From assembly GCA_000004985.1 (NCBI GenBank), contig GG738880.1: a DNA stretch of 64,000 bases. The stretch is one strand, 5' to 3'. The stretch comes from Naegleria gruberi. Lineage: Eukaryota. The position numbers were made by a program, and so were the translations under genes. Shown in pieces: positions 6,935 through 50,411 of this stretch (positions are counted from its first letter, which is position 1; every line of letters begins with the position of its first letter). Below the pieces are notes generated by a model, which saw only the letters and a program-made list of their open reading frames with translations, did not search any database and was not told the origin of the DNA.

Positions 6935-7135
6935 GTTAAATAAATTCATCATGATCGTTCCAGTAAACAATGTCAAACATCTATTGAGAAATGATATACA
7001 GAGTTGGTATTAGCTGAAAGTGGTTTTAACTGCAGAAATTAAGAAGATCCTCAACTTCAAAACAATTCACAGTCTATGCAATTTGGCATATCCTAATATT
7101 CAAAGATTTTGCAAAATTGGTAAATAATTTATTAA

Positions 7136-7450
7136 TTAAAAGAGACCTTTAACTTCTTCTGTTTCTGGGTCAATATCGATCAAAAGGTAGGCAGGACGAG
7201 TTGGAAGACCTGGAAGTGCAGAAATATCACCACAGAAAGGAACCAACAAACCAGCACCACTGTATAATCTGATACTCTTAATTGGGAGAATGAAACCACT
7301 TGGAGCACCCTTCAATTTTTCGTCATGAGAGAAACTGTATTGAGTTTTAGCAAAACAAATAGAATACTTTTCTGGCAACTTGTCCAATTTTTGAATTTCC
7401 TTTTCAGCAGCTTCAGCATATTCAACACCAGCAGCTCCATAAATTTCCTT
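7136..7450 (-). CDS. formate--tetrahydrofolate ligase (FTHFS), C-terminal fragment (~104 aa) ending at the stop codon; truncated on its 5' side by the N gap at 7451
   Basis: The translation '…KEIYGAAGVEYAEAAEKEIQKLDKLPEKYSICFAKTQYSFSHDEKLKGAPSGFILPIKSIRLYSGAGLLVPFCGDISALPGLPTRPAYLLIDIDPETEEVKGLF*' carries the conserved FTHFS C-terminal motifs (AKTQYSFS, GAP.GF.LPI, MPGLP). The first 19 aa of track ORF 7136..7558 lie beyond the 50-N gap and are not part of this gene. Confidence 0.8.
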   Translation of the reverse strand, partial: KEIYGAAGVEYAEAAEKEIQKLDKLPEKYSICFAKTQYSFSHDEKLKGAPSGFILPIKSIRLYSGAGLLVPFCGDISALPGLPTRPAYLLIDIDPETEEVKGLF

Positions 7451-7500
7451 NNNNNNNNNNNNNNNNNNNNNNNNNNNNNNNNNNNNNNNNNNNNNNNNNN
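7451..7500. other. assembly gap (50 N)
   Basis: Run of exactly 50 n characters. It interrupts the FTHFS reading frame. Confidence 0.97.
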
Positions 7501-7717
7501 TCTCAATATAACGATGATATTGATGATGAAAATTATGAAAAGAAATTAGAAAATGCATTTAATAGTGAAAAATCATTACTTTTATCTAATAGTAATAATA
7601 ATATTTCCTATTATGATAATAATGGTAAATTCTATTAATAATAATTATAATGAAATTCCAATTTTAGTTGAAAAGAAAAGATTTTCAAATTTTACAAAAA
7701 TATTTCAATCAGAATCA

Positions 7718-8722
7718 ATGAAGAGAGTTAGAAGATGGATAGCATTTATTGTTGGTTGTTTTATAATGACTGCAAGTGGTACTCCTTATTCATTTTCATC
7801 TATTAGTCCTTCTCTAAAAAAGTAAGTTTTTAATTTTATTTAAATATAATTTATTTTAATTATTATTATTTTTTTTAATTTAATTTTATAATATTATGAA
7901 AATAGAACATTTTTATTATCACAAAGTGAAGGTATGTTACAATTATATTGTTTTATTAAAATAATAATATTTCTATAAATAGTAAATTTAATAGGAACAT
8001 CAGCCAATTTAGGATCTAATTTTAGTTTTATATTTTCATTTGTAAATGATATATTTGGATCTAGAATTAGTAGTTTATTAGCAGGAGCATGTTTATTTTT
8101 TTCATATTTTTCCATGTCCTTAATTGTAACTGGTAATTTACCATTTATAGATCCATATATAGCATTTTGTTTTTTAATGTTTTTAATGGGAAGTGCATGT
8201 GGAGGTGGTTTTATATCTTCAATTTCTACTTCAATGAAGAATTTTCCAGAAAGAAATAGAGGTCTAGTTAGTATGTATTTAATTTTATTTAATGTTTATT
8301 TAATATTTTTATTTTTTTATTTATTTAATTTTATATTTAAATATATAAGTTGGAGTATTATCATCTTGTTATGGTATTAGTAGTGCAATATATTCAGGTG
8401 CATATTTATATATATTTCAACAAGATTTAGAAATTTATTTAATATTTTGTGCTGTATTAGGAGGTGTTGTAGTAATGATAATGGGTCCTATATTTTTAGA
8501 TAGTAAGGCTAATTCACTTACTATAAATAGTAATAATAATAAGAATAATCAAATTGATAATAATAATCAAATTGAAAATGAAAATGAATCATCCAATGTA
8601 GATAACGTAGATAATTTACAAGATGATAATGTAAATAATAATTTAAAAGAAAATAATTTAAAAGAAAATGAAACTTTAAAAGAAAGAATTACCAAAATAG
8701 AATTAAAATTAAAAGAAAATGA
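7718..8722 (+). CDS. nodulin-like major facilitator superfamily (MFS) transporter, 4 exons, 3' partial (runs into the gap): join(7718..7821,7906..7931,7983..8270,8350..>8722)
   Basis: Splicing removes all stops. Introns are 7822..7905 (gtaagt…aaatag), 7932..7982 (gtatgt…aaatag; an alternative acceptor at 7994 is also in frame) and 8271..8349 (gtatgt…tataag). The spliced product 'MKRVRRWIAFIVGCFIMTASGTPYSFSSISPSLKKTFLLSQSEVNLIGTSANLGSNFSFIFSFVNDIFGSR…MFLMGSACGGGFISSISTSMKNFPERNRGLVIGVLSSCYGISSAIYSGAYLYIF…' parallels the plant nodulin-like MFS N-terminus ('RWLVFVAAMWIQSCAGIGYLFGSISPVIKS…SRGPVVGILKGFAGLGGAILSQVY'). It then enters an N-rich low-complexity loop. The start could instead be the upstream ATG at 7553. 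Confidence 0.7.
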
Positions 8723-11700
8723 NNNNNNNNNNNNNNNNNNNNNNNNNNNNNNNNNNNNNNNNNNNNNNNNNNNNNNNNNNNNNNNNNNNNNNNNNNNNNN
8801 NNNNNNNNNNNNNNNNNNNNNNNNNNNNNNNNNNNNNNNNNNNNNNNNNNNNNNNNNNNNNNNNNNNNNNNNNNNNNNNNNNNNNNNNNNNNNNNNNNNN
8901 NNNNNNNNNNNNNNNNNNNNNNNNNNNNNNNNNNNNNNNNNNNNNNNNNNNNNNNNNNNNNNNNNNNNNNNNNNNNNNNNNNNNNNNNNNNNNNNNNNNN
9001 NNNNNNNNNNNNNNNNNNNNNNNNNNNNNNNNNNNNNNNNNNNNNNNNNNNNNNNNNNNNNNNNNNNNNNNNNNNNNNNNNNNNNNNNNNNNNNNNNNNN
9101 NNNNNNNNNNNNNNNNNNNNNNNNNNNNNNNNNNNNNNNNNNNNNNNNNNNNNNNNNNNNNNNNNNNNNNNNNNNNNNNNNNNNNNNNNNNNNNNNNNNN
9201 NNNNNNNNNNNNNNNNNNNNNNNNNNNNNNNNNNNNNNNNNNNNNNNNNNNNNNNNNNNNNNNNNNNNNNNNNNNNNNNNNNNNNNNNNNNNNNNNNNNN
9301 NNNNNNNNNNNNNNNNNNNNNNNNNNNNNNNNNNNNNNNNNNNNNNNNNNNNNNNNNNNNNNNNNNNNNNNNNNNNNNNNNNNNNNNNNNNNNNNNNNNN
9401 NNNNNNNNNNNNNNNNNNNNNNNNNNNNNNNNNNNNNNNNNNNNNNNNNNNNNNNNNNNNNNNNNNNNNNNNNNNNNNNNNNNNNNNNNNNNNNNNNNNN
9501 NNNNNNNNNNNNNNNNNNNNNNNNNNNNNNNNNNNNNNNNNNNNNNNNNNNNNNNNNNNNNNNNNNNNNNNNNNNNNNNNNNNNNNNNNNNNNNNNNNNN
9601 NNNNNNNNNNNNNNNNNNNNNNNNNNNNNNNNNNNNNNNNNNNNNNNNNNNNNNNNNNNNNNNNNNNNNNNNNNNNNNNNNNNNNNNNNNNNNNNNNNNN
9701 NNNNNNNNNNNNNNNNNNNNNNNNNNNNNNNNNNNNNNNNNNNNNNNNNNNNNNNNNNNNNNNNNNNNNNNNNNNNNNNNNNNNNNNNNNNNNNNNNNNN
9801 NNNNNNNNNNNNNNNNNNNNNNNNNNNNNNNNNNNNNNNNNNNNNNNNNNNNNNNNNNNNNNNNNNNNNNNNNNNNNNNNNNNNNNNNNNNNNNNNNNNN
9901 NNNNNNNNNNNNNNNNNNNNNNNNNNNNNNNNNNNNNNNNNNNNNNNNNNNNNNNNNNNNNNNNNNNNNNNNNNNNNNNNNNNNNNNNNNNNNNNNNNNN
10001 NNNNNNNNNNNNNNNNNNNNNNNNNNNNNNNNNNNNNNNNNNNNNNNNNNNNNNNNNNNNNNNNNNNNNNNNNNNNNNNNNNNNNNNNNNNNNNNNNNNN
10101 NNNNNNNNNNNNNNNNNNNNNNNNNNNNNNNNNNNNNNNNNNNNNNNNNNNNNNNNNNNNNNNNNNNNNNNNNNNNNNNNNNNNNNNNNNNNNNNNNNNN
10201 NNNNNNNNNNNNNNNNNNNNNNNNNNNNNNNNNNNNNNNNNNNNNNNNNNNNNNNNNNNNNNNNNNNNNNNNNNNNNNNNNNNNNNNNNNNNNNNNNNNN
10301 NNNNNNNNNNNNNNNNNNNNNNNNNNNNNNNNNNNNNNNNNNNNNNNNNNNNNNNNNNNNNNNNNNNNNNNNNNNNNNNNNNNNNNNNNNNNNNNNNNNN
10401 NNNNNNNNNNNNNNNNNNNNNNNNNNNNNNNNNNNNNNNNNNNNNNNNNNNNNNNNNNNNNNNNNNNNNNNNNNNNNNNNNNNNNNNNNNNNNNNNNNNN
10501 NNNNNNNNNNNNNNNNNNNNNNNNNNNNNNNNNNNNNNNNNNNNNNNNNNNNNNNNNNNNNNNNNNNNNNNNNNNNNNNNNNNNNNNNNNNNNNNNNNNN
10601 NNNNNNNNNNNNNNNNNNNNNNNNNNNNNNNNNNNNNNNNNNNNNNNNNNNNNNNNNNNNNNNNNNNNNNNNNNNNNNNNNNNNNNNNNNNNNNNNNNNN
10701 NNNNNNNNNNNNNNNNNNNNNNNNNNNNNNNNNNNNNNNNNNNNNNNNNNNNNNNNNNNNNNNNNNNNNNNNNNNNNNNNNNNNNNNNNNNNNNNNNNNN
10801 NNNNNNNNNNNNNNNNNNNNNNNNNNNNNNNNNNNNNNNNNNNNNNNNNNNNNNNNNNNNNNNNNNNNNNNNNNNNNNNNNNNNNNNNNNNNNNNNNNNN
10901 NNNNNNNNNNNNNNNNNNNNNNNNNNNNNNNNNNNNNNNNNNNNNNNNNNNNNNNNNNNNNNNNNNNNNNNNNNNNNNNNNNNNNNNNNNNNNNNNNNNN
11001 NNNNNNNNNNNNNNNNNNNNNNNNNNNNNNNNNNNNNNNNNNNNNNNNNNNNNNNNNNNNNNNNNNNNNNNNNNNNNNNNNNNNNNNNNNNNNNNNNNNN
11101 NNNNNNNNNNNNNNNNNNNNNNNNNNNNNNNNNNNNNNNNNNNNNNNNNNNNNNNNNNNNNNNNNNNNNNNNNNNNNNNNNNNNNNNNNNNNNNNNNNNN
11201 NNNNNNNNNNNNNNNNNNNNNNNNNNNNNNNNNNNNNNNNNNNNNNNNNNNNNNNNNNNNNNNNNNNNNNNNNNNNNNNNNNNNNNNNNNNNNNNNNNNN
11301 NNNNNNNNNNNNNNNNNNNNNNNNNNNNNNNNNNNNNNNNNNNNNNNNNNNNNNNNNNNNNNNNNNNNNNNNNNNNNNNNNNNNNNNNNNNNNNNNNNNN
11401 NNNNNNNNNNNNNNNNNNNNNNNNNNNNNNNNNNNNNNNNNNNNNNNNNNNNNNNNNNNNNNNNNNNNNNNNNNNNNNNNNNNNNNNNNNNNNNNNNNNN
11501 NNNNNNNNNNNNNNNNNNNNNNNNNNNNNNNNNNNNNNNNNNNNNNNNNNNNNNNNNNNNNNNNNNNNNNNNNNNNNNNNNNNNNNNNNNNNNNNNNNNN
11601 NNNNNNNNNNNNNNNNNNNNNNNNNNNNNNNNNNNNNNNNNNNNNNNNNNNNNNNNNNNNNNNNNNNNNNNNNNNNNNNNNNNNNNNNNNNNNNNNNNNN

Positions 11701-14700
11701 NNNNNNNNNNNNNNNNNNNNNNNNNNNNNNNNNNNNNNNNNNNNNNNNNNNNNNNNNNNNNNNNNNNNNNNNNNNNNNNNNNNNNNNNNNNNNNNNNNNN
11801 NNNNNNNNNNNNNNNNNNNNNNNNNNNNNNNNNNNNNNNNNNNNNNNNNNNNNNNNNNNNNNNNNNNNNNNNNNNNNNNNNNNNNNNNNNNNNNNNNNNN
11901 NNNNNNNNNNNNNNNNNNNNNNNNNNNNNNNNNNNNNNNNNNNNNNNNNNNNNNNNNNNNNNNNNNNNNNNNNNNNNNNNNNNNNNNNNNNNNNNNNNNN
12001 NNNNNNNNNNNNNNNNNNNNNNNNNNNNNNNNNNNNNNNNNNNNNNNNNNNNNNNNNNNNNNNNNNNNNNNNNNNNNNNNNNNNNNNNNNNNNNNNNNNN
12101 NNNNNNNNNNNNNNNNNNNNNNNNNNNNNNNNNNNNNNNNNNNNNNNNNNNNNNNNNNNNNNNNNNNNNNNNNNNNNNNNNNNNNNNNNNNNNNNNNNNN
12201 NNNNNNNNNNNNNNNNNNNNNNNNNNNNNNNNNNNNNNNNNNNNNNNNNNNNNNNNNNNNNNNNNNNNNNNNNNNNNNNNNNNNNNNNNNNNNNNNNNNN
12301 NNNNNNNNNNNNNNNNNNNNNNNNNNNNNNNNNNNNNNNNNNNNNNNNNNNNNNNNNNNNNNNNNNNNNNNNNNNNNNNNNNNNNNNNNNNNNNNNNNNN
12401 NNNNNNNNNNNNNNNNNNNNNNNNNNNNNNNNNNNNNNNNNNNNNNNNNNNNNNNNNNNNNNNNNNNNNNNNNNNNNNNNNNNNNNNNNNNNNNNNNNNN
12501 NNNNNNNNNNNNNNNNNNNNNNNNNNNNNNNNNNNNNNNNNNNNNNNNNNNNNNNNNNNNNNNNNNNNNNNNNNNNNNNNNNNNNNNNNNNNNNNNNNNN
12601 NNNNNNNNNNNNNNNNNNNNNNNNNNNNNNNNNNNNNNNNNNNNNNNNNNNNNNNNNNNNNNNNNNNNNNNNNNNNNNNNNNNNNNNNNNNNNNNNNNNN
12701 NNNNNNNNNNNNNNNNNNNNNNNNNNNNNNNNNNNNNNNNNNNNNNNNNNNNNNNNNNNNNNNNNNNNNNNNNNNNNNNNNNNNNNNNNNNNNNNNNNNN
12801 NNNNNNNNNNNNNNNNNNNNNNNNNNNNNNNNNNNNNNNNNNNNNNNNNNNNNNNNNNNNNNNNNNNNNNNNNNNNNNNNNNNNNNNNNNNNNNNNNNNN
12901 NNNNNNNNNNNNNNNNNNNNNNNNNNNNNNNNNNNNNNNNNNNNNNNNNNNNNNNNNNNNNNNNNNNNNNNNNNNNNNNNNNNNNNNNNNNNNNNNNNNN
13001 NNNNNNNNNNNNNNNNNNNNNNNNNNNNNNNNNNNNNNNNNNNNNNNNNNNNNNNNNNNNNNNNNNNNNNNNNNNNNNNNNNNNNNNNNNNNNNNNNNNN
13101 NNNNNNNNNNNNNNNNNNNNNNNNNNNNNNNNNNNNNNNNNNNNNNNNNNNNNNNNNNNNNNNNNNNNNNNNNNNNNNNNNNNNNNNNNNNNNNNNNNNN
13201 NNNNNNNNNNNNNNNNNNNNNNNNNNNNNNNNNNNNNNNNNNNNNNNNNNNNNNNNNNNNNNNNNNNNNNNNNNNNNNNNNNNNNNNNNNNNNNNNNNNN
13301 NNNNNNNNNNNNNNNNNNNNNNNNNNNNNNNNNNNNNNNNNNNNNNNNNNNNNNNNNNNNNNNNNNNNNNNNNNNNNNNNNNNNNNNNNNNNNNNNNNNN
13401 NNNNNNNNNNNNNNNNNNNNNNNNNNNNNNNNNNNNNNNNNNNNNNNNNNNNNNNNNNNNNNNNNNNNNNNNNNNNNNNNNNNNNNNNNNNNNNNNNNNN
13501 NNNNNNNNNNNNNNNNNNNNNNNNNNNNNNNNNNNNNNNNNNNNNNNNNNNNNNNNNNNNNNNNNNNNNNNNNNNNNNNNNNNNNNNNNNNNNNNNNNNN
13601 NNNNNNNNNNNNNNNNNNNNNNNNNNNNNNNNNNNNNNNNNNNNNNNNNNNNNNNNNNNNNNNNNNNNNNNNNNNNNNNNNNNNNNNNNNNNNNNNNNNN
13701 NNNNNNNNNNNNNNNNNNNNNNNNNNNNNNNNNNNNNNNNNNNNNNNNNNNNNNNNNNNNNNNNNNNNNNNNNNNNNNNNNNNNNNNNNNNNNNNNNNNN
13801 NNNNNNNNNNNNNNNNNNNNNNNNNNNNNNNNNNNNNNNNNNNNNNNNNNNNNNNNNNNNNNNNNNNNNNNNNNNNNNNNNNNNNNNNNNNNNNNNNNNN
13901 NNNNNNNNNNNNNNNNNNNNNNNNNNNNNNNNNNNNNNNNNNNNNNNNNNNNNNNNNNNNNNNNNNNNNNNNNNNNNNNNNNNNNNNNNNNNNNNNNNNN
14001 NNNNNNNNNNNNNNNNNNNNNNNNNNNNNNNNNNNNNNNNNNNNNNNNNNNNNNNNNNNNNNNNNNNNNNNNNNNNNNNNNNNNNNNNNNNNNNNNNNNN
14101 NNNNNNNNNNNNNNNNNNNNNNNNNNNNNNNNNNNNNNNNNNNNNNNNNNNNNNNNNNNNNNNNNNNNNNNNNNNNNNNNNNNNNNNNNNNNNNNNNNNN
14201 NNNNNNNNNNNNNNNNNNNNNNNNNNNNNNNNNNNNNNNNNNNNNNNNNNNNNNNNNNNNNNNNNNNNNNNNNNNNNNNNNNNNNNNNNNNNNNNNNNNN
14301 NNNNNNNNNNNNNNNNNNNNNNNNNNNNNNNNNNNNNNNNNNNNNNNNNNNNNNNNNNNNNNNNNNNNNNNNNNNNNNNNNNNNNNNNNNNNNNNNNNNN
14401 NNNNNNNNNNNNNNNNNNNNNNNNNNNNNNNNNNNNNNNNNNNNNNNNNNNNNNNNNNNNNNNNNNNNNNNNNNNNNNNNNNNNNNNNNNNNNNNNNNNN
14501 NNNNNNNNNNNNNNNNNNNNNNNNNNNNNNNNNNNNNNNNNNNNNNNNNNNNNNNNNNNNNNNNNNNNNNNNNNNNNNNNNNNNNNNNNNNNNNNNNNNN
14601 NNNNNNNNNNNNNNNNNNNNNNNNNNNNNNNNNNNNNNNNNNNNNNNNNNNNNNNNNNNNNNNNNNNNNNNNNNNNNNNNNNNNNNNNNNNNNNNNNNNN

Positions 14701-35700: not shown

Positions 35701-38700
35701 NNNNNNNNNNNNNNNNNNNNNNNNNNNNNNNNNNNNNNNNNNNNNNNNNNNNNNNNNNNNNNNNNNNNNNNNNNNNNNNNNNNNNNNNNNNNNNNNNNNN
35801 NNNNNNNNNNNNNNNNNNNNNNNNNNNNNNNNNNNNNNNNNNNNNNNNNNNNNNNNNNNNNNNNNNNNNNNNNNNNNNNNNNNNNNNNNNNNNNNNNNNN
35901 NNNNNNNNNNNNNNNNNNNNNNNNNNNNNNNNNNNNNNNNNNNNNNNNNNNNNNNNNNNNNNNNNNNNNNNNNNNNNNNNNNNNNNNNNNNNNNNNNNNN
36001 NNNNNNNNNNNNNNNNNNNNNNNNNNNNNNNNNNNNNNNNNNNNNNNNNNNNNNNNNNNNNNNNNNNNNNNNNNNNNNNNNNNNNNNNNNNNNNNNNNNN
36101 NNNNNNNNNNNNNNNNNNNNNNNNNNNNNNNNNNNNNNNNNNNNNNNNNNNNNNNNNNNNNNNNNNNNNNNNNNNNNNNNNNNNNNNNNNNNNNNNNNNN
36201 NNNNNNNNNNNNNNNNNNNNNNNNNNNNNNNNNNNNNNNNNNNNNNNNNNNNNNNNNNNNNNNNNNNNNNNNNNNNNNNNNNNNNNNNNNNNNNNNNNNN
36301 NNNNNNNNNNNNNNNNNNNNNNNNNNNNNNNNNNNNNNNNNNNNNNNNNNNNNNNNNNNNNNNNNNNNNNNNNNNNNNNNNNNNNNNNNNNNNNNNNNNN
36401 NNNNNNNNNNNNNNNNNNNNNNNNNNNNNNNNNNNNNNNNNNNNNNNNNNNNNNNNNNNNNNNNNNNNNNNNNNNNNNNNNNNNNNNNNNNNNNNNNNNN
36501 NNNNNNNNNNNNNNNNNNNNNNNNNNNNNNNNNNNNNNNNNNNNNNNNNNNNNNNNNNNNNNNNNNNNNNNNNNNNNNNNNNNNNNNNNNNNNNNNNNNN
36601 NNNNNNNNNNNNNNNNNNNNNNNNNNNNNNNNNNNNNNNNNNNNNNNNNNNNNNNNNNNNNNNNNNNNNNNNNNNNNNNNNNNNNNNNNNNNNNNNNNNN
36701 NNNNNNNNNNNNNNNNNNNNNNNNNNNNNNNNNNNNNNNNNNNNNNNNNNNNNNNNNNNNNNNNNNNNNNNNNNNNNNNNNNNNNNNNNNNNNNNNNNNN
36801 NNNNNNNNNNNNNNNNNNNNNNNNNNNNNNNNNNNNNNNNNNNNNNNNNNNNNNNNNNNNNNNNNNNNNNNNNNNNNNNNNNNNNNNNNNNNNNNNNNNN
36901 NNNNNNNNNNNNNNNNNNNNNNNNNNNNNNNNNNNNNNNNNNNNNNNNNNNNNNNNNNNNNNNNNNNNNNNNNNNNNNNNNNNNNNNNNNNNNNNNNNNN
37001 NNNNNNNNNNNNNNNNNNNNNNNNNNNNNNNNNNNNNNNNNNNNNNNNNNNNNNNNNNNNNNNNNNNNNNNNNNNNNNNNNNNNNNNNNNNNNNNNNNNN
37101 NNNNNNNNNNNNNNNNNNNNNNNNNNNNNNNNNNNNNNNNNNNNNNNNNNNNNNNNNNNNNNNNNNNNNNNNNNNNNNNNNNNNNNNNNNNNNNNNNNNN
37201 NNNNNNNNNNNNNNNNNNNNNNNNNNNNNNNNNNNNNNNNNNNNNNNNNNNNNNNNNNNNNNNNNNNNNNNNNNNNNNNNNNNNNNNNNNNNNNNNNNNN
37301 NNNNNNNNNNNNNNNNNNNNNNNNNNNNNNNNNNNNNNNNNNNNNNNNNNNNNNNNNNNNNNNNNNNNNNNNNNNNNNNNNNNNNNNNNNNNNNNNNNNN
37401 NNNNNNNNNNNNNNNNNNNNNNNNNNNNNNNNNNNNNNNNNNNNNNNNNNNNNNNNNNNNNNNNNNNNNNNNNNNNNNNNNNNNNNNNNNNNNNNNNNNN
37501 NNNNNNNNNNNNNNNNNNNNNNNNNNNNNNNNNNNNNNNNNNNNNNNNNNNNNNNNNNNNNNNNNNNNNNNNNNNNNNNNNNNNNNNNNNNNNNNNNNNN
37601 NNNNNNNNNNNNNNNNNNNNNNNNNNNNNNNNNNNNNNNNNNNNNNNNNNNNNNNNNNNNNNNNNNNNNNNNNNNNNNNNNNNNNNNNNNNNNNNNNNNN
37701 NNNNNNNNNNNNNNNNNNNNNNNNNNNNNNNNNNNNNNNNNNNNNNNNNNNNNNNNNNNNNNNNNNNNNNNNNNNNNNNNNNNNNNNNNNNNNNNNNNNN
37801 NNNNNNNNNNNNNNNNNNNNNNNNNNNNNNNNNNNNNNNNNNNNNNNNNNNNNNNNNNNNNNNNNNNNNNNNNNNNNNNNNNNNNNNNNNNNNNNNNNNN
37901 NNNNNNNNNNNNNNNNNNNNNNNNNNNNNNNNNNNNNNNNNNNNNNNNNNNNNNNNNNNNNNNNNNNNNNNNNNNNNNNNNNNNNNNNNNNNNNNNNNNN
38001 NNNNNNNNNNNNNNNNNNNNNNNNNNNNNNNNNNNNNNNNNNNNNNNNNNNNNNNNNNNNNNNNNNNNNNNNNNNNNNNNNNNNNNNNNNNNNNNNNNNN
38101 NNNNNNNNNNNNNNNNNNNNNNNNNNNNNNNNNNNNNNNNNNNNNNNNNNNNNNNNNNNNNNNNNNNNNNNNNNNNNNNNNNNNNNNNNNNNNNNNNNNN
38201 NNNNNNNNNNNNNNNNNNNNNNNNNNNNNNNNNNNNNNNNNNNNNNNNNNNNNNNNNNNNNNNNNNNNNNNNNNNNNNNNNNNNNNNNNNNNNNNNNNNN
38301 NNNNNNNNNNNNNNNNNNNNNNNNNNNNNNNNNNNNNNNNNNNNNNNNNNNNNNNNNNNNNNNNNNNNNNNNNNNNNNNNNNNNNNNNNNNNNNNNNNNN
38401 NNNNNNNNNNNNNNNNNNNNNNNNNNNNNNNNNNNNNNNNNNNNNNNNNNNNNNNNNNNNNNNNNNNNNNNNNNNNNNNNNNNNNNNNNNNNNNNNNNNN
38501 NNNNNNNNNNNNNNNNNNNNNNNNNNNNNNNNNNNNNNNNNNNNNNNNNNNNNNNNNNNNNNNNNNNNNNNNNNNNNNNNNNNNNNNNNNNNNNNNNNNN
38601 NNNNNNNNNNNNNNNNNNNNNNNNNNNNNNNNNNNNNNNNNNNNNNNNNNNNNNNNNNNNNNNNNNNNNNNNNNNNNNNNNNNNNNNNNNNNNNNNNNNN

Positions 38701-41700
38701 NNNNNNNNNNNNNNNNNNNNNNNNNNNNNNNNNNNNNNNNNNNNNNNNNNNNNNNNNNNNNNNNNNNNNNNNNNNNNNNNNNNNNNNNNNNNNNNNNNNN
38801 NNNNNNNNNNNNNNNNNNNNNNNNNNNNNNNNNNNNNNNNNNNNNNNNNNNNNNNNNNNNNNNNNNNNNNNNNNNNNNNNNNNNNNNNNNNNNNNNNNNN
38901 NNNNNNNNNNNNNNNNNNNNNNNNNNNNNNNNNNNNNNNNNNNNNNNNNNNNNNNNNNNNNNNNNNNNNNNNNNNNNNNNNNNNNNNNNNNNNNNNNNNN
39001 NNNNNNNNNNNNNNNNNNNNNNNNNNNNNNNNNNNNNNNNNNNNNNNNNNNNNNNNNNNNNNNNNNNNNNNNNNNNNNNNNNNNNNNNNNNNNNNNNNNN
39101 NNNNNNNNNNNNNNNNNNNNNNNNNNNNNNNNNNNNNNNNNNNNNNNNNNNNNNNNNNNNNNNNNNNNNNNNNNNNNNNNNNNNNNNNNNNNNNNNNNNN
39201 NNNNNNNNNNNNNNNNNNNNNNNNNNNNNNNNNNNNNNNNNNNNNNNNNNNNNNNNNNNNNNNNNNNNNNNNNNNNNNNNNNNNNNNNNNNNNNNNNNNN
39301 NNNNNNNNNNNNNNNNNNNNNNNNNNNNNNNNNNNNNNNNNNNNNNNNNNNNNNNNNNNNNNNNNNNNNNNNNNNNNNNNNNNNNNNNNNNNNNNNNNNN
39401 NNNNNNNNNNNNNNNNNNNNNNNNNNNNNNNNNNNNNNNNNNNNNNNNNNNNNNNNNNNNNNNNNNNNNNNNNNNNNNNNNNNNNNNNNNNNNNNNNNNN
39501 NNNNNNNNNNNNNNNNNNNNNNNNNNNNNNNNNNNNNNNNNNNNNNNNNNNNNNNNNNNNNNNNNNNNNNNNNNNNNNNNNNNNNNNNNNNNNNNNNNNN
39601 NNNNNNNNNNNNNNNNNNNNNNNNNNNNNNNNNNNNNNNNNNNNNNNNNNNNNNNNNNNNNNNNNNNNNNNNNNNNNNNNNNNNNNNNNNNNNNNNNNNN
39701 NNNNNNNNNNNNNNNNNNNNNNNNNNNNNNNNNNNNNNNNNNNNNNNNNNNNNNNNNNNNNNNNNNNNNNNNNNNNNNNNNNNNNNNNNNNNNNNNNNNN
39801 NNNNNNNNNNNNNNNNNNNNNNNNNNNNNNNNNNNNNNNNNNNNNNNNNNNNNNNNNNNNNNNNNNNNNNNNNNNNNNNNNNNNNNNNNNNNNNNNNNNN
39901 NNNNNNNNNNNNNNNNNNNNNNNNNNNNNNNNNNNNNNNNNNNNNNNNNNNNNNNNNNNNNNNNNNNNNNNNNNNNNNNNNNNNNNNNNNNNNNNNNNNN
40001 NNNNNNNNNNNNNNNNNNNNNNNNNNNNNNNNNNNNNNNNNNNNNNNNNNNNNNNNNNNNNNNNNNNNNNNNNNNNNNNNNNNNNNNNNNNNNNNNNNNN
40101 NNNNNNNNNNNNNNNNNNNNNNNNNNNNNNNNNNNNNNNNNNNNNNNNNNNNNNNNNNNNNNNNNNNNNNNNNNNNNNNNNNNNNNNNNNNNNNNNNNNN
40201 NNNNNNNNNNNNNNNNNNNNNNNNNNNNNNNNNNNNNNNNNNNNNNNNNNNNNNNNNNNNNNNNNNNNNNNNNNNNNNNNNNNNNNNNNNNNNNNNNNNN
40301 NNNNNNNNNNNNNNNNNNNNNNNNNNNNNNNNNNNNNNNNNNNNNNNNNNNNNNNNNNNNNNNNNNNNNNNNNNNNNNNNNNNNNNNNNNNNNNNNNNNN
40401 NNNNNNNNNNNNNNNNNNNNNNNNNNNNNNNNNNNNNNNNNNNNNNNNNNNNNNNNNNNNNNNNNNNNNNNNNNNNNNNNNNNNNNNNNNNNNNNNNNNN
40501 NNNNNNNNNNNNNNNNNNNNNNNNNNNNNNNNNNNNNNNNNNNNNNNNNNNNNNNNNNNNNNNNNNNNNNNNNNNNNNNNNNNNNNNNNNNNNNNNNNNN
40601 NNNNNNNNNNNNNNNNNNNNNNNNNNNNNNNNNNNNNNNNNNNNNNNNNNNNNNNNNNNNNNNNNNNNNNNNNNNNNNNNNNNNNNNNNNNNNNNNNNNN
40701 NNNNNNNNNNNNNNNNNNNNNNNNNNNNNNNNNNNNNNNNNNNNNNNNNNNNNNNNNNNNNNNNNNNNNNNNNNNNNNNNNNNNNNNNNNNNNNNNNNNN
40801 NNNNNNNNNNNNNNNNNNNNNNNNNNNNNNNNNNNNNNNNNNNNNNNNNNNNNNNNNNNNNNNNNNNNNNNNNNNNNNNNNNNNNNNNNNNNNNNNNNNN
40901 NNNNNNNNNNNNNNNNNNNNNNNNNNNNNNNNNNNNNNNNNNNNNNNNNNNNNNNNNNNNNNNNNNNNNNNNNNNNNNNNNNNNNNNNNNNNNNNNNNNN
41001 NNNNNNNNNNNNNNNNNNNNNNNNNNNNNNNNNNNNNNNNNNNNNNNNNNNNNNNNNNNNNNNNNNNNNNNNNNNNNNNNNNNNNNNNNNNNNNNNNNNN
41101 NNNNNNNNNNNNNNNNNNNNNNNNNNNNNNNNNNNNNNNNNNNNNNNNNNNNNNNNNNNNNNNNNNNNNNNNNNNNNNNNNNNNNNNNNNNNNNNNNNNN
41201 NNNNNNNNNNNNNNNNNNNNNNNNNNNNNNNNNNNNNNNNNNNNNNNNNNNNNNNNNNNNNNNNNNNNNNNNNNNNNNNNNNNNNNNNNNNNNNNNNNNN
41301 NNNNNNNNNNNNNNNNNNNNNNNNNNNNNNNNNNNNNNNNNNNNNNNNNNNNNNNNNNNNNNNNNNNNNNNNNNNNNNNNNNNNNNNNNNNNNNNNNNNN
41401 NNNNNNNNNNNNNNNNNNNNNNNNNNNNNNNNNNNNNNNNNNNNNNNNNNNNNNNNNNNNNNNNNNNNNNNNNNNNNNNNNNNNNNNNNNNNNNNNNNNN
41501 NNNNNNNNNNNNNNNNNNNNNNNNNNNNNNNNNNNNNNNNNNNNNNNNNNNNNNNNNNNNNNNNNNNNNNNNNNNNNNNNNNNNNNNNNNNNNNNNNNNN
41601 NNNNNNNNNNNNNNNNNNNNNNNNNNNNNNNNNNNNNNNNNNNNNNNNNNNNNNNNNNNNNNNNNNNNNNNNNNNNNNNNNNNNNNNNNNNNNNNNNNNN

Positions 41701-44353
41701 NNNNNNNNNNNNNNNNNNNNNNNNNNNNNNNNNNNNNNNNNNNNNNNNNNNNNNNNNNNNNNNNNNNNNNNNNNNNNNNNNNNNNNNNNNNNNNNNNNNN
41801 NNNNNNNNNNNNNNNNNNNNNNNNNNNNNNNNNNNNNNNNNNNNNNNNNNNNNNNNNNNNNNNNNNNNNNNNNNNNNNNNNNNNNNNNNNNNNNNNNNNN
41901 NNNNNNNNNNNNNNNNNNNNNNNNNNNNNNNNNNNNNNNNNNNNNNNNNNNNNNNNNNNNNNNNNNNNNNNNNNNNNNNNNNNNNNNNNNNNNNNNNNNN
42001 NNNNNNNNNNNNNNNNNNNNNNNNNNNNNNNNNNNNNNNNNNNNNNNNNNNNNNNNNNNNNNNNNNNNNNNNNNNNNNNNNNNNNNNNNNNNNNNNNNNN
42101 NNNNNNNNNNNNNNNNNNNNNNNNNNNNNNNNNNNNNNNNNNNNNNNNNNNNNNNNNNNNNNNNNNNNNNNNNNNNNNNNNNNNNNNNNNNNNNNNNNNN
42201 NNNNNNNNNNNNNNNNNNNNNNNNNNNNNNNNNNNNNNNNNNNNNNNNNNNNNNNNNNNNNNNNNNNNNNNNNNNNNNNNNNNNNNNNNNNNNNNNNNNN
42301 NNNNNNNNNNNNNNNNNNNNNNNNNNNNNNNNNNNNNNNNNNNNNNNNNNNNNNNNNNNNNNNNNNNNNNNNNNNNNNNNNNNNNNNNNNNNNNNNNNNN
42401 NNNNNNNNNNNNNNNNNNNNNNNNNNNNNNNNNNNNNNNNNNNNNNNNNNNNNNNNNNNNNNNNNNNNNNNNNNNNNNNNNNNNNNNNNNNNNNNNNNNN
42501 NNNNNNNNNNNNNNNNNNNNNNNNNNNNNNNNNNNNNNNNNNNNNNNNNNNNNNNNNNNNNNNNNNNNNNNNNNNNNNNNNNNNNNNNNNNNNNNNNNNN
42601 NNNNNNNNNNNNNNNNNNNNNNNNNNNNNNNNNNNNNNNNNNNNNNNNNNNNNNNNNNNNNNNNNNNNNNNNNNNNNNNNNNNNNNNNNNNNNNNNNNNN
42701 NNNNNNNNNNNNNNNNNNNNNNNNNNNNNNNNNNNNNNNNNNNNNNNNNNNNNNNNNNNNNNNNNNNNNNNNNNNNNNNNNNNNNNNNNNNNNNNNNNNN
42801 NNNNNNNNNNNNNNNNNNNNNNNNNNNNNNNNNNNNNNNNNNNNNNNNNNNNNNNNNNNNNNNNNNNNNNNNNNNNNNNNNNNNNNNNNNNNNNNNNNNN
42901 NNNNNNNNNNNNNNNNNNNNNNNNNNNNNNNNNNNNNNNNNNNNNNNNNNNNNNNNNNNNNNNNNNNNNNNNNNNNNNNNNNNNNNNNNNNNNNNNNNNN
43001 NNNNNNNNNNNNNNNNNNNNNNNNNNNNNNNNNNNNNNNNNNNNNNNNNNNNNNNNNNNNNNNNNNNNNNNNNNNNNNNNNNNNNNNNNNNNNNNNNNNN
43101 NNNNNNNNNNNNNNNNNNNNNNNNNNNNNNNNNNNNNNNNNNNNNNNNNNNNNNNNNNNNNNNNNNNNNNNNNNNNNNNNNNNNNNNNNNNNNNNNNNNN
43201 NNNNNNNNNNNNNNNNNNNNNNNNNNNNNNNNNNNNNNNNNNNNNNNNNNNNNNNNNNNNNNNNNNNNNNNNNNNNNNNNNNNNNNNNNNNNNNNNNNNN
43301 NNNNNNNNNNNNNNNNNNNNNNNNNNNNNNNNNNNNNNNNNNNNNNNNNNNNNNNNNNNNNNNNNNNNNNNNNNNNNNNNNNNNNNNNNNNNNNNNNNNN
43401 NNNNNNNNNNNNNNNNNNNNNNNNNNNNNNNNNNNNNNNNNNNNNNNNNNNNNNNNNNNNNNNNNNNNNNNNNNNNNNNNNNNNNNNNNNNNNNNNNNNN
43501 NNNNNNNNNNNNNNNNNNNNNNNNNNNNNNNNNNNNNNNNNNNNNNNNNNNNNNNNNNNNNNNNNNNNNNNNNNNNNNNNNNNNNNNNNNNNNNNNNNNN
43601 NNNNNNNNNNNNNNNNNNNNNNNNNNNNNNNNNNNNNNNNNNNNNNNNNNNNNNNNNNNNNNNNNNNNNNNNNNNNNNNNNNNNNNNNNNNNNNNNNNNN
43701 NNNNNNNNNNNNNNNNNNNNNNNNNNNNNNNNNNNNNNNNNNNNNNNNNNNNNNNNNNNNNNNNNNNNNNNNNNNNNNNNNNNNNNNNNNNNNNNNNNNN
43801 NNNNNNNNNNNNNNNNNNNNNNNNNNNNNNNNNNNNNNNNNNNNNNNNNNNNNNNNNNNNNNNNNNNNNNNNNNNNNNNNNNNNNNNNNNNNNNNNNNNN
43901 NNNNNNNNNNNNNNNNNNNNNNNNNNNNNNNNNNNNNNNNNNNNNNNNNNNNNNNNNNNNNNNNNNNNNNNNNNNNNNNNNNNNNNNNNNNNNNNNNNNN
44001 NNNNNNNNNNNNNNNNNNNNNNNNNNNNNNNNNNNNNNNNNNNNNNNNNNNNNNNNNNNNNNNNNNNNNNNNNNNNNNNNNNNNNNNNNNNNNNNNNNNN
44101 NNNNNNNNNNNNNNNNNNNNNNNNNNNNNNNNNNNNNNNNNNNNNNNNNNNNNNNNNNNNNNNNNNNNNNNNNNNNNNNNNNNNNNNNNNNNNNNNNNNN
44201 NNNNNNNNNNNNNNNNNNNNNNNNNNNNNNNNNNNNNNNNNNNNNNNNNNNNNNNNNNNNNNNNNNNNNNNNNNNNNNNNNNNNNNNNNNNNNNNNNNNN
44301 NNNNNNNNNNNNNNNNNNNNNNNNNNNNNNNNNNNNNNNNNNNNNNNNNNNNN
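8723..44353. other. assembly gap (35,631 N)
   Basis: Uninterrupted run of n. The ORFs reported across it (8475..44981, 8567..44401, 8709..45245, 8719..44607) are translation artefacts. Confidence 0.97.
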
Positions 44354-46107
44354 AGTTAGCAAAACCAGTCTTAACAGCTTCAACGTCTGGTTGGGTAACA
44401 TTCTTCAATGCACATCCACCGTGGAATTTAAGAGCACGAATACTGGCAACAATGACAGCAACAGATGGCTTCAAACCAGAAATTCTGCACTTGATGTCAA
44501 AGAACTTTTCACCACCAATATCACCACCAAAACCAGCTTCAGTCAAAACAAAACCATCTTCACCAACAAGTCTCAAAGCAATATCATCAGCAATAATACC
44601 ATTTTGACCAGCAGCAATATTAGCAAATGGACCAGCATGAACAAAAACTGGAGTAGATTCAATAGTTTGCATCAAAGTTGGCTTAATGGTGTCCTTCATC
44701 AAGACAGCCATAGCACCAGCAACACCAACATCTTCAGCAGTAACTGCATTACCATCACGATCATAGGCAACAGTAATCTTACCAAATCTTTCTCTCATGT
44801 CTGTCAAATTCTTGGACAATGCCAAAACAGCCATACATTCAGAGGCAACAGCAATATCAAATTGAGTTTCTCTGGTTTGACCCTTTTCATTTGGACCTTG
44901 GCCAATAGTGATCTTTCTCAAATGTCTGTCGTTAATATCAACAACTCTGTTAATCTTAATAGTGGCTGGATCAATATTTAATCTGACGAGTTTTTCTCTT
45001 TCTTCTGGTGTTAATTTATCTGGATCTTCTCTTTCAGCAATACCTAATTTGGCCAATCTTTGGATCATGGATGGAACAAATTGTCTCTTTCCGTCCTTAC
45101 CAGCTGGACAAAGGTGATCAAAGAGTTGATCAGTCTTTTGATATGATTCATGGAAAACTCTAGTATCAACAGCAGCAGCCAACAAGTTATTGGCAGCAGC
45201 AATAGCGTGAATATCACCAGTCATGTGCAAATTGAATTCTTCCATAGGAACCTATTGTCAAATGATCATAAAATTTGAAAAAACAGTTCAATTATTGTGC
45301 ACTTACAATTTGTGAATAACCACCTCCAGCAGCACCACCCTTGATACCCTATAATTATTATTTGATTAATTATCATACTCCTCATTCAAAACTTACAAAA
45401 ACAGGTCCTTGTGATGGTTGTCTTAAACAAGAAACAACCTTTTTTCCGAGATGAGCACCCAAAGCTTGTGAGATACCCAAACAAGTTGTTGATTTACCTT
45501 CACCGAGAGGTGTTGGATTAATACCAGTAATCAAAACATAATTTCCCATTGGAGCATCTTGTCCTAAACGTTTAAGAATTTTCTTTCCATCAATCTTAGC
45601 CTTGTACTTTCCGTAAAATTCCAATTCTTCGTCAACATCAATGCCATAACGTGTGGCAATATCACCAATAAATTCAGGTTTACAATGTTGAGACACTTCA
45701 ATATCACTTGGGACAGGGACACGAATTTCACTCAATTTCTTACCAGTAATTGTTTCTTGTTGGGACATTTTTTTGTTGGTGTTGTTGTTGCAACCGGTTG
45801 AAGAACTGTAAGAGCGAAAAGAAGAGCCGGTTGAAGATGTTCTTGCTGATGATTCGCTACAATCAATAATATTAACATATTTGTGATGGGAAATTTGTTT
45901 GGCGCCAAAATTTAGGGAAGTATTCTTCTTCTTGTTGGTTGCAAGGCTTTTTGAGAAGCTTCTTCTTATCGATGATGATGAAGAGGTGGTTGAGCAAGTT
46001 GTTGATGATGCATTGTTCAATTGATGATTAGGAGTGTTACCGATGAGACGATCATGACACCAAAGTGATTGAATATTACACTTGGATTTTGTAATCTTAC
46101 GAAGCAT
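44354..46107 (-). CDS. formate--tetrahydrofolate ligase (monofunctional FTHFS), 5' portion in 3 exons, truncated by the gap on its 3' side: join(<44354..45251,45307..45348,45397..46107)
   Basis: Exon 1 encodes '…[49 protein letters not shown]…[46 protein letters not shown]' (FTHFS N-terminus with the P-loop 'TPLGEGKST'). Intron 45349..45396 is gtaagt…tatag. The 42-nt exon 2 encodes '[14 protein letters not shown]'. Intron 45252..45306 is gtaagt…caatag. Exon 3 encodes '[26 protein letters not shown]…' (the hallmark 'GDIHAI' motif). The ATG at 46107 is preceded by nothing in frame. The first 113 aa are an S/T/N-rich extension; an alternative start is 'MSQQ' at 45768. Confidence 0.85.
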
Positions 46108-46596
46108 ATGACGTGGATTTAGATATTTACAATAATAGGAAGATTAAAAAGATCAATCTACTACTACAATTAATGATGAAGCAAATTACAAGCAGATGAA
46201 ATTGAACTCAGTTCCGAAGTATTATTAACCAACAAGAATTGTTTCAATTTTTTTGATTTTAAAAAGCTCGTGCTAACAAGGGTTATGTGTGTTATTTTAA
46301 TCGTCGGGTTAGAGGTGCAGTTTCTCTAAATGTCATCAAGTAATACGAACAATTGCATTTCCATTGATTGGAATAGAAAGTTTTTGAATGGCTTAATTAT
46401 AAAAAGAATCCGCTACTATTTCAATAATTTGCAAGGGTTGACTTGCACCTTTCTATTACAGTTAAATAGAATAATAAACATGTAGTGTTTCCACTTACAA
46501 CAAATGATTTCTATTTGGGGCATCTTTGTAACCAGTATTCAACTACAGTTTGTTCAAGAAACTGTATTTGTGAAATATTGTAAAGTGGAATATAAT

Positions 46597-47371
46597 TTAT
46601 TGGAATTTCTTCTTGGCATATTCCTCACCAAATAATTTACAAAGTACATTCATACATGGTCCATATTCTGCTTTCTGCATTAAATCCCACTCTACAGTAA
46701 ATAATACGAAATGTTTAAATAAAGTATTGATGTGAGCTGAGATACCTAAATTATTAATATATGATCCATGTCTATGATAAATGTGTGCAAAAACTCTAAA
46801 AAGTCTTGAAAATATTTTAACAACAGTTGGTTTGACTATTTTAGAAACGGATCATGATATTCTAAACAAATTATTCTAAACTAAACTTACATTTCTTTGG
46901 ATATGCTTTATCATCTTGTTGTGGAAATACTTTTGGATCATCCAATTTAGTATCAATCCATTCAGATAATAAATTAATATACAAAGGAGCCGAAACTGTT
47001 GTTGGTTGATGATATTGTACATTAGTTGATTCATCATCGAACCATCTATATTCATAACAATCTCCACCACTCATAGATGGACAATTTAATTCAGTACAAT
47101 CATGATTTAATTTCATACTATCAATTAGTAGGAATAAATTTTCATAAAATTCCAAAACGTGTTGAGCCAACCAATCCTTCTCATCAACTTGTGAAGGTAA
47201 TTTTACCAATTGTTCCAATTCTCTAATACTTGCTGAGAGTCCTGATATGATCACTGATTGTCTGTGATGATGGTGATGATGACCATTTGATGTACTTGTG
47301 GTTGGTGCTGTTGTTTGTTGCACTGTAAAAATTGATTGTTGTCTCTTTCGTTTGAAAAAGTTAGATAACAT
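46597..47371 (-). CDS. MOB kinase activator (Mob1/phocein family), 2 exons: join(46597..46835,46891..47371)
   Basis: Exon 1 encodes '…LPSQVDEKDWLAQHVLEFYENLFLLIDSMKLNHDCTELNCPSMSGGDCYEYRWFDDE…LYINLLSEWIDTKLDDPKVFPQQDDKAYPKK' (Mob1 core, Cys/His Zn-site pattern). It is phase 1 at 46891. Intron 46836..46890 is gtaagt…aaaatag. Exon 2 encodes 'FKPTVVKIFSRLFRVFAHIYHRHGSYINNLGISAHINTLFKHFVLFTVEWDLMQKAEYGPCMNVLCKLFGEEYAKKKFQ*', matching the Mob1 C-terminus 'RLFRVYAHIYH.HF…AHLNT.FKHF'. The N-terminus contains an H6 tract. Confidence 0.85.
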
Positions 47372-48420: not shown

Positions 48421-48504
48421 ATTATTTATTGAGAGAGGTTTACAGTTTTAGATTTCCTAGCTTAAATCTCAGTCCATTTTCTCTAGAATTTAATGTCACA
48501 TAAA

Positions 48505-50253: not shown

Positions 50254-50411
50254 TATAAATTATATTATTATTTAATTATTATTTATCATTCATAAAATCA
50301 ATCCCTTTATTGAGATTGCATTCAATAAACTCATAAATTATCAAATTCCATCATACCATCAATACTACCATTATTATACGTTTCATATATTTCAATTTTT
50401 CAATTCCAAAA

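What the first reader, a model, noticed from the sequence alone, without database searches (positions are those of the whole stretch)
7136..46107. FTHFS gene is split across both assembly gaps with an opposite-strand MFS-gene contig in between (likely mis-scaffolding)
The FTHFS C-terminus (7136..7450, minus) and N-terminal three exons (44354..46107, minus) lie on the same strand in the correct order. Together they account for ~522 of the ~555-630 expected residues. The missing ~35-100 aa is about what the 50-N gap alone could hold. The 1.2-kb block at 7501..8722 carries an unrelated plus-strand transporter gene that runs into the 35.6-kb N run. That block plus the big gap therefore sit inside what should be a contiguous FTHFS coding exon. 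Either the small contig and the gap size are scaffolding artefacts, or there are two FTHFS paralogues each truncated at a contig end.
Basis: seen in the sequence. Interest (0 to 1): 0.6.

Follow-up and report, generated by a model that had tools for sequence, protein, structure and literature searches.

The report
Assembly gap splits one FTHFS gene
One ordinary formate-tetrahydrofolate ligase gene of the amoeba Naegleria gruberi looks torn in two because the draft assembly has a gap in it, filled with a stray duplicate piece of a nearby transporter gene and about 36 kb of placeholder Ns; this is an assembly artefact, not biology.

Summary
The window is a 416,450-bp scaffold of the Sanger draft genome of Naegleria gruberi NEG-M. 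One minus-strand FTHFS gene is cut at two contig ends. The N-terminal 437 aa (Pfam positions 2-359) end at 44354. The C-terminal 104 aa (positions 453-556) start at 7450. About 95 aa (~284 nt) are missing; in Willaertia this stretch is uninterrupted exon. The two fragments do not overlap, lie in the right order on one strand, share codon usage and are equally diverged from orthologues. The RefSeq model XP_002675089.1 (533 aa) already joins them through a false 36,928-nt intron.

The 1,222-bp island is not an independent gene. It is a 99%-identical partial copy of the Nodulin-like MFS gene NAEGRDRAFT_69687. By accession order, that complete gene lies ten gene models to the left, on the same scaffold and strand. 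No gene model lies inside the N run.

Best reading: the island is a redundant contig (an uncollapsed allele or low-quality reads) wedged into a roughly 0.3-kb sequence gap, and the gap length was mis-estimated. Biological interest is low, but the public FTHFS protein entry is internally truncated.

The parts
7136..7450 (-). FTHFS C-terminal fragment: 104 codons (7450..7139) plus the TAA stop (7138-7136). It ends at the edge of contig A.
   Evidence: Translation. Pfam PF01268 positions 453-556, E 6e-33. 85% identical to N. fowleri residues 637-740 and 81% to Willaertia residues 527-630.
7451..7500 (.). 50-N placeholder gap between contig A and the island.
   Evidence: The RefSeq model's false acceptor reads NNNAAG at this edge.
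7501..8722 (+). 1,222-bp island: a partial Nodulin-like MFS transporter gene covering codons 3 to ~335. Exons are 7501-7624, 7668-7821, 7906-7931, 7983 (or 7995)-8270 and 8350-8722. It is a redundant, slightly divergent copy of NAEGRDRAFT_69687 and is not annotated in the public record.
   Evidence: Pfam PF06813, E 1.6e-26. Exon structure. Exon junctions are shared with the Willaertia and N. lovaniensis genes. 99% identical to P0139 over shared residues, differing by a 1-nt indel, two SNPs and a 6-nt indel. GC 0.198 and GC3 0.07, against GC3 0.19-0.30 in 10 of the 11 long flanking ORFs.
8723..44353 (.). 35,631-N run: a sized scaffold gap holding no gene models. It is probably a wrong estimate of a true A-to-C gap of about 0.3 kb.
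   Evidence: Accession order leaves no CDS between FTHFS and the ORF at 46871.
44354..45251 (-). FTHFS exon 3, cut at the edge of contig C: 299 codons plus 1 nt, ending ...VKTGFAN+T.
   Evidence: The lone T fits the Leu codon that follows in N. fowleri and Willaertia.
45307..45348 (-). FTHFS exon 2 (14 codons, [14 protein letters not shown]).
45397..45768 (-). FTHFS exon 1 as annotated (124 codons from MSQQ). It includes the ATP-binding loop PLGEGKSTT.
   Evidence: The published model P0001 is rebuilt exactly from these exons.
45769..46107 (-). In-frame 113-codon upstream extension from the ATG at 46107 (MLRKITKSK..., Ser/Thr-rich). It may be the true N-terminus or a targeting peptide, and it is not in the RefSeq model.
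   Evidence: ORF 45382..46107. Translation. The N. fowleri model carries a comparable extension of about 116 aa starting MLKRCKN.

Best explanation
There is one FTHFS gene (monofunctional formate-tetrahydrofolate ligase, about 636 aa from MSQQ or about 749 aa from the upstream ATG). Contigs A (to 7450) and C (from 44354) are true neighbours in the correct order and orientation. They are separated by an unsequenced stretch of about 284 nt inside FTHFS exon 3.

The 1,222-bp island does not belong there. It is a redundant partial contig of the MFS gene NAEGRDRAFT_69687, whose complete copy lies ten gene models to the left on the same scaffold and strand. The differences from that copy (a 1-nt indel, two SNPs and a 6-nt indel in a low-complexity run) kept it from merging with the main contig. 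It is therefore either an uncollapsed second allele or a low-coverage, error-bearing contig.

The scaffolder dropped it into the nearest open gap with a minimal 50-N spacer. It then sized the next gap from the island's own long-insert links to contig C. So 35.6 kb reflects the distance from the MFS locus to FTHFS, not the distance from A to C.

Shown here: the identities, coordinates, complementarity of the fragments, duplicate status of the island, gene order and the gap-spanning public model. Inferred: the exact scaffolding mechanism, and whether the island is an allele or an error-bearing contig.
For: 1. Source: N. gruberi NEG-M, scaffold of 416,450 bp.
2. Pfam places the fragments at positions 2-359 and 453-556 with no overlap. 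The missing part is 95 or 94 aa against the orthologues, and it is continuous exon in Willaertia.
3. The fragments match each other: GC3 0.255 and 0.250, the same preferred codons, and equal divergence from the orthologues.
4. The search returned only one N. gruberi FTHFS, and only one entry each for N. fowleri (a 5-member cluster) and Willaertia.
5. XP_002675089.1 is rebuilt 533/533 from exons 45768-45397, 45348-45307, 45251-44376 and 7447-7139. Its 36,928-nt 'intron' uses a cryptic in-exon GT and an AG that abuts the Ns.
6. The island is 99% identical to P0139 (EFC42267 / D2VL82), which starts two codons earlier and runs 245 aa further. The C-terminal half of P0139 is absent from the visible window.
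7. Accession order was validated on five window genes. UniProt D2VL92, 94, 96 and 97 follow position. Minus-strand EFC42345-42348 and plus-strand EFC42272-42273 are consecutive. This puts P0139 ten models to the left on the plus strand, and puts no model on the island or in the N run.
8. The model predicts the P0139 start about 29 kb left of the window start, leaving room for 8 further genes. At the genome average of about 2.5 kb per gene (40.9 Mb, 16,620 genes; PMC9928731) the expected distance is about 22 kb, which is the same order.
9. The assembly is Sanger-based, and Naegleria is described as mainly a heterozygous diploid (PMC9928731).
Against: - No reads, mate pairs, second assembly or transcript of N. 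gruberi could be reached. Look-ups of the N. gruberi proteins P0001, P0138 and P0139 returned 'not on record', so contiguity is not shown directly.
- If ordinary plasmid mate pairs spanned a 0.3-kb gap, a scaffolder should have sized A to C correctly. The 36.9-kb spacing therefore needs missing or overridden direct A-C links.
- The distance to the true MFS locus is estimated only from gene counts (about 22-30 kb against 36.6 kb predicted).
- Why 284 nt of a single-copy exon failed to assemble is unexplained.
Confidence: 0.8

Rival explanations
1. Two FTHFS paralogues lie about 37 kb apart, each truncated at a contig end, and the island and the gap are placed correctly.
For: The scaffolder's sized gap of 35,631 N implies long-insert evidence for a real distance. 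Both contigs end inside FTHFS coding sequence.
Against: - The fragments are exactly complementary (profile 2-359 and 453-556), on the same strand and in gene order.
- Codon usage is identical and divergence from orthologues is equal.
- No second N. gruberi FTHFS protein exists in the database, and the search returned only one entry each for N. fowleri and Willaertia.
- Near-identical tandem copies would collapse with double coverage. They would not leave the middle of the gene unsequenced.
Confidence: 0.06
2. A real structural variant, possibly in one haplotype: about 37 kb including a partial duplicate of the MFS gene is inserted into FTHFS, or a rearrangement has broken FTHFS. The fragments would then be a disrupted allele or a young pseudogene.
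For: - The island differs from the annotated MFS copy by real sequence changes, including a 6-nt indel, so it could be a true second copy.
- Naegleria is reported to be heterozygous (PMC9928731).
- The scaffolder linked the island both to A (50 N) and to C (35.6 kb).
Against: - A simple insertion would not remove 284 nt of exon.
- An intact allele, if present, should have assembled straight through.
- Both fragments are clean ORFs up to the last base of each contig and are conserved at 85-87% with N. fowleri.
- The island is cut at arbitrary points: codon 3 at one end and mid-exon at the other.
Confidence: 0.07
3. The island is foreign contaminant DNA from an AT-rich organism such as a dictyostelid or an anaerobic fungus, or the long N run is a mask laid over real sequence.
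For: - Island GC is 0.198, 7.3 SD below all 1,222-bp windows in the flanks. GC3 is 0.07 and the introns are 5-14% GC.
- The first protein search with the island found no N. gruberi protein.
Against: - The island is 99% identical to an annotated N. gruberi protein on the same scaffold.
- Its next-closest relatives are Willaertia and N. lovaniensis, with shared exon junctions.
- Against masking: the public model bridges the Ns with an acceptor that abuts them, and accession order leaves no gene in 35.6 kb where about 14 would be expected.
Confidence: 0.02

Closest known systems
RefSeq/UniProt model XP_002675089.1 / EFC42345.1 / D2VL92, 'formate--tetrahydrofolate ligase [Naegleria gruberi]', 533 aa
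   Same: It is this locus. The model is rebuilt exactly from window exons 45768-45397, 45348-45307, 45251-44376 and 7447-7139.
   Different: - The model treats both gaps and the island as one 36,928-nt intron.
- It discards 8 genuine codons at the contig edges (VKTGFAN and K).
- It lacks about 95 further residues, so about 103 aa are missing internally.
- It starts at an internal Met, 113 codons downstream of an in-frame ATG.
Intact monofunctional FTHFS of Naegleria fowleri (P0002, 740 aa) and Willaertia magna (P0003, 630 aa)
   Same: 87% and 79% identity over the N fragment, 85% and 81% over the C fragment, and the same domain (PF01268).
   Different: Their genes are complete. The 94-95 aa absent here (LRRHIGNMKKYGVPVVVCINEF...KEKIETIA) is present, and in Willaertia it lies within one uninterrupted exon.
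NAEGRDRAFT_69687 (P0139, XP_002675011.1 / D2VL82), Nodulin-like MFS protein, 580 aa
   Same: The island encodes the same protein from residue 3 to 335 at 99% identity, on the same scaffold and strand.
   Different: The island is only the 5' half. It carries an extra G (needing a 43-nt intron or causing a frameshift), changes I278N and Q300H, and lacks 2 residues (DV). The complete gene lies ten gene models to the left.
Uncollapsed allelic contigs (haplotigs) or redundant low-coverage contigs placed in scaffold gaps of heterozygous draft assemblies (general knowledge of assembly artefacts)
   Same: A small contig, nearly identical to a nearby locus, in the same orientation, truncated at arbitrary points, sitting in a gap and inflating the scaffold length.
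   Different: Allelic origin is not demonstrated here. A low-quality read contig or a true partial duplication would look the same from sequence alone.

Membership tests
Formate--tetrahydrofolate ligase (FTHFS, Pfam PF01268) | A significant full-domain match to the family profile | tested here: met
   The N fragment scores 543.7 bits (E 5e-163, profile 2-359). The C fragment scores 114.3 bits (E 6e-33, profile 453-556). The cut-off is 27 bits. Profile positions 360-452 are unsequenced.
Formate--tetrahydrofolate ligase (FTHFS, Pfam PF01268) | The nucleotide-binding glycine-rich loop (PLGEGKST) near the N-terminus; which motif defines the family is my own knowledge | tested here: met
   The sequence [13 protein letters not shown] is present in exon 1.
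Formate--tetrahydrofolate ligase (FTHFS, Pfam PF01268) | A single contiguous gene encoding one polypeptide | tested here: inconclusive
   The fragments are complementary, collinear and match in codon usage. The orthologues are contiguous. No read, transcript or second assembly of N. gruberi was reachable.
Nodulin-like / NFD4 subfamily of MFS transporters (Pfam PF06813 with PF07690) | A match to the Nodulin-like N-terminal domain and the MFS_1 profile | tested here: met
   Island protein: PF06813 93.8 bits (E 1.6e-26) and PF07690 58 bits. The full-length copy P0139 also carries PF23262 (NFD4_C).
Redundant or allelic contig misplaced in a scaffold gap (assembly artefact) | Near-identity to another locus of the same assembly, with small indels or SNPs | tested here: met
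   99% identity to P0139 over shared residues, with a 1-nt indel, two SNPs and a 6-nt indel.
Redundant or allelic contig misplaced in a scaffold gap (assembly artefact) | The parent locus is nearby, on the same scaffold and in the same orientation | tested here: met
   Same 416,450-bp scaffold. P0139 lies ten gene models to the left and falls in the plus-strand accession block. The exact distance could not be measured.
Redundant or allelic contig misplaced in a scaffold gap (assembly artefact) | Read-pair or read-depth evidence that the contig's reads belong to the parent locus | not testable with these tools

The most novel reading that the evidence does not exclude
The scaffold is right, at least for one haplotype. 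In NEG-M, a segment of about 37 kb that begins with a partial duplicate of the AT-rich MFS gene has been inserted into, or rearranged within, the FTHFS coding exon. That would leave a heterozygous disrupted allele of a core one-carbon-metabolism gene.
Probability: 0.06. Interest if true: 0.3.

Novelty: not a real feature. Interest (0 to 1): 0.08.

Why it matters
There is no new biology here. The practical consequences are these:
- The public N. gruberi FTHFS entry (XP_002675089.1 / D2VL92) lacks about 103 internal residues and possibly a 113-aa N-terminal extension. It should not be used uncorrected for alignments, structure modelling or localisation prediction.
- The scaffold is probably about 36.6 kb too long at this point.
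- It contains an unannotated redundant fragment of NAEGRDRAFT_69687 that could be miscounted as a gene duplication.
- The case shows how gene models that bridge gaps hide assembly errors.

Tried and rejected
1. Foreign contamination of the island. This was suggested by GC 0.198, GC3 0.07 and an empty first protein search. It was rejected once the exhaustive search, the cluster names and P0139 showed a Naegleria origin.

2. Synteny. The Willaertia FTHFS locus (L002), the Willaertia MFS locus (L003) and the N. lovaniensis MFS locus (L004) share only the query gene with the window. No flanking genes are shared, so synteny is uninformative.

3. Direct look-up of the N. gruberi scaffold through P0001, P0139 and P0138, and of N. 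fowleri through P0002. All were 'not on record'.

4. Overlap between the island ends and the contig ends, or between the end of A and the start of C. Only chance matches of 15 nt or less were found.

5. The N run as a mask over real sequence. Rejected by the accession order and by the gap-abutting acceptor of the public model.

6. Literature search for a newer long-read N. gruberi assembly or for assembler details. The titles and abstracts listed, and the two papers opened, gave nothing usable.

7. tRNA and Rfam scans of the window found nothing.
Full report
**What is in the sequence.** The window holds three blocks of real sequence: 1-7450, 7501-8722 and 44354-64000. They are separated by runs of 50 N and 35,631 N.

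On the minus strand, 7450..7139 encodes 104 residues (KEIYGAAGVEY...EEVKGLF) followed by a TAA stop at 7138-7136. On the same strand, 45768..44354 encodes 437 residues in three exons: 45768-45397, 45348-45307 and 45251-44354. The two introns are 48 and 55 nt with GTAAGT donors and AG acceptors.

Pfam places the larger piece at positions 2-359 of the 556-position FTHFS profile (E 5e-163). It places the smaller piece at positions 453-556 (E 6e-33).

Its arithmetic needs adjusting:
- 541 residues are present, counted from MSQQ.
- The missing part is 95 aa against N. fowleri (residues 542-636) and 94 aa against Willaertia magna (residues 433-526), about 284 nt.
- Fifty literal bases cannot hold that, so the 50 N can only be a placeholder.

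**Whose genome, and what the public record says.** The N-terminal piece matches 'formate--tetrahydrofolate ligase [Naegleria gruberi]' (P0001: XP_002675089.1, EFC42345.1, UniProt D2VL92; 533 aa) on a 416,450-bp scaffold of strain NEG-M.

Splicing window exons 45768-45397, 45348-45307, 45251-44376 and 7447-7139 reproduces that protein exactly, 533 of 533 residues. The published model therefore already joins the two fragments. It does so through a 36,928-nt 'intron' that runs from a cryptic in-exon GT (GTTAAG) to an AG lying directly against the Ns (NNNAAG).

To make this join, the model discards eight genuine codons (VKTGFAN and K). In total it lacks about 103 internal residues.

**One gene or two?** All the indirect tests point to one gene.
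- The fragments do not overlap. They lie on the same strand in gene order.
- They have the same composition and codon preferences. GC3 is 0.255 and 0.250, and both prefer TTG, GGT, GCT and ATT.
- They are equally diverged from orthologues: 87% and 85% against N. fowleri, 79% and 81% against Willaertia.
- A search of 5.8 billion proteins found only one N. gruberi FTHFS, and only one entry each for N. fowleri and Willaertia.
- In Willaertia, the region corresponding to the missing piece is 282 nt of uninterrupted exon, in frame with both sides.
- Local introns are about 50 nt, so a real 37-kb intron is not credible.

FTHFS itself shows that contigs A and C are true neighbours in the right orientation.

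**What the island is.** The island encodes a plus-strand, five-exon fragment of a Nodulin-like MFS transporter (PF06813, E 1.6e-26). Its exon junctions are shared with the Willaertia and N. lovaniensis genes.

Its composition is far from that of the flanks. GC is 0.198, which is 7.3 SD below every 1,222-bp window in the flanks. GC3 is 0.07, against 0.19-0.30 in 10 of the 11 long flanking ORFs; the eleventh, at 0.52, is antisense to FTHFS exon 3 and is probably spurious. The introns are 5-14% GC.

A first protein search found only a 53% hit from a metagenome, so I first suspected contamination. That was wrong.
- An exhaustive search and the cluster names showed that the nearest named relatives are heterolobosean.
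- A search seeded with the Willaertia protein then found P0139, a 580-aa 'predicted protein [Naegleria gruberi]' (NAEGRDRAFT_69687, XP_002675011.1, D2VL82), on a scaffold of the same length, 416,450 bp.
- With the same splice choices, the island's translation is 99% identical to P0139 residues 3-335.
- P0139 starts two codons earlier (MA) and continues for 245 residues past the point where the island meets the Ns (...KIELKLKEN|EAPNVNPF...).
- That C-terminal half has no match anywhere in the visible window.

The two copies differ at the DNA level, so P0139 is not encoded by the island:
- The island has an extra G (aatGGtaaa). It must either splice out 43 nt or suffer a frameshift where P0139 reads VNSINNNYNEIPIL.
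- There are two substitutions (I278N, Q300H).
- There is a 6-nt indel (DV).

**Where the complete MFS gene lies.** The scaffold could not be fetched, so I used accession order and validated it on window genes.

| Gene (window position, strand) | UniProt | GenBank |
|---|---|---|
| MFS P0139 (outside window, +) | D2VL82 | EFC42267 |
| FTHFS (leftmost coordinate 7136, −) | D2VL92 | EFC42345 |
| ORF 48022-48417 (+) | D2VL94 | EFC42272 |
| ORF 49591-50250 (+) | D2VL96 | EFC42273 |
| ORF 50415-50780 (−) | D2VL97 | EFC42348 |

The two unassigned UniProt numbers (D2VL93, D2VL95) and the two unassigned minus-strand numbers (EFC42346, EFC42347) fit the Mob1-like ORF at 46871-47371 and the ORF at 48505-49332. 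UniProt numbers are therefore positional, and EFC numbers are positional within each strand.

Two conclusions follow.
1. No gene model lies on the island or inside the 35.6-kb run. At 40.9 Mb and 16,620 genes (PMC9928731), about 14 genes would be expected there if it were real sequence. The N run is therefore a true gap in the annotated record.
2. P0139 (D2VL82, EFC42267) lies ten models to the left of FTHFS, on the plus strand like the island, and outside the window.

**Most likely mechanism (inferred).** The island is a redundant contig from the NAEGRDRAFT_69687 locus. It is either the second allele or a low-coverage, error-bearing contig. The genus is described as mainly a heterozygous diploid and the assembly is Sanger-based (PMC9928731). 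Its differences kept it from merging with the main contig.

It could not occupy its true position, which the main contig already fills. So it was placed in the next open gap, after contig A, with a minimal spacer. The following gap was then sized from the island's own long-insert links to contig C.

On this model the MFS gene's start lies about 36.6 kb left of 7450, which is about 29 kb left of the window start. P0139 and eight further genes must fit in that interval. The genome average of about 2.5 kb per gene predicts about 22 kb, the same order as 29 kb. The total of 36.9 kb is also about the size of a fosmid insert (my own knowledge of Sanger-era libraries, not verified for this project).

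I give 0.8 to the core claim: one gene, a misplaced island and a wrong gap size. I give about 0.5 to this specific scaffolding mechanism.

**Rivals.**
- *Two truncated paralogues (0.06).* This is hard to reconcile with the exact complementarity of the fragments, the single FTHFS in the proteome, and the fact that collapsed repeats do not lose their middle.
- *A real insertion or rearrangement in one haplotype (0.07).* This cannot be excluded without reads. It does not explain the missing 284 nt, or why an intact allele failed to assemble.
- *Contamination or masking (0.02).* Both are contradicted.

**Verdict.** This is an artefact of a draft assembly that the public annotation has already papered over. 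Its value is corrective rather than a discovery.

Noticed in passing
window 45769-46107 (-): An in-frame ATG at 46107 adds 113 Ser/Thr- and Lys/Arg-rich codons (MLRKITKSK...) upstream of the annotated FTHFS start (MSQQ at 45768). The N. fowleri model has a comparable extension of about 116 aa starting MLKRCKN. The true protein may be longer and carry a targeting peptide, possibly mitochondrial.
   Followed up: partly
window 7501-8722 (+), and NAEGRDRAFT_69687 elsewhere on the scaffold: This MFS gene is unusually AT-rich for N. gruberi. GC3 is 0.07 and the introns are 5-14% GC. TTA outnumbers TTG 26 to 0 and TTT outnumbers TTC 25 to 0. Flanking ORFs have GC3 0.19-0.30. It is also the most divergent of the N. 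gruberi paralogues: 53% identical to Willaertia P0122, against 60% for P0138. The cause is unknown.
   Followed up: partly
window 7618-7670 (+): The island has GG where the annotated copy must have a single G. The island therefore needs a 43-nt GT..AG intron to stay in frame, while P0139 reads straight through (VNSINNNYNEIPIL). This could be a sequencing error, a frameshifted allele or an allele-specific intron.
   Followed up: partly
tool behaviour: A protein search with the island's core sequence did not return P0139, although the two are 99% identical. P0139 surfaced only when the Willaertia homologue was used as the query. This is a pitfall for contamination calls.
   Followed up: no
window 50-6934 (+): A 2,294-codon open reading frame with DOCK-family DHR-2 lobes A and C (a RhoGEF) lies immediately left of FTHFS. 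The first-ATG version is not identical to any database protein, so the public model probably differs in its start or its introns.
   Followed up: no
window 54927-55310 (-): A 128-aa protein with a ubiquitin-like N-terminus ([11 protein letters not shown]...) is encoded here. The exact sequence is in the database only from an ENA contig and carries no N. gruberi accession. Its 90% cluster includes an N. lovaniensis protein named 'Ubiquitin-like domain-containing protein'. It may be unannotated or annotated differently in N. gruberi.
   Followed up: no
window 57557-62008 (-): A 1,483-codon ORF with no Pfam domain at E <= 0.001. Other neighbours are a Ulp1/C48 peptidase (55905-57551), a BRE-like protein (53451-54818), a TPR protein (62036-63226) and a Mob1/phocein protein (46871-47371).
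   Followed up: no
L001 (ENA ERZ27315067 contig k141_1710963, 4,904 bp, GC 0.38): A metagenome contig encodes a Nodulin-like MFS protein 52-63% identical to the island gene, with no intron across the aligned 191 aa. It probably comes from an unsampled heterolobosean or other protist.
   Followed up: no
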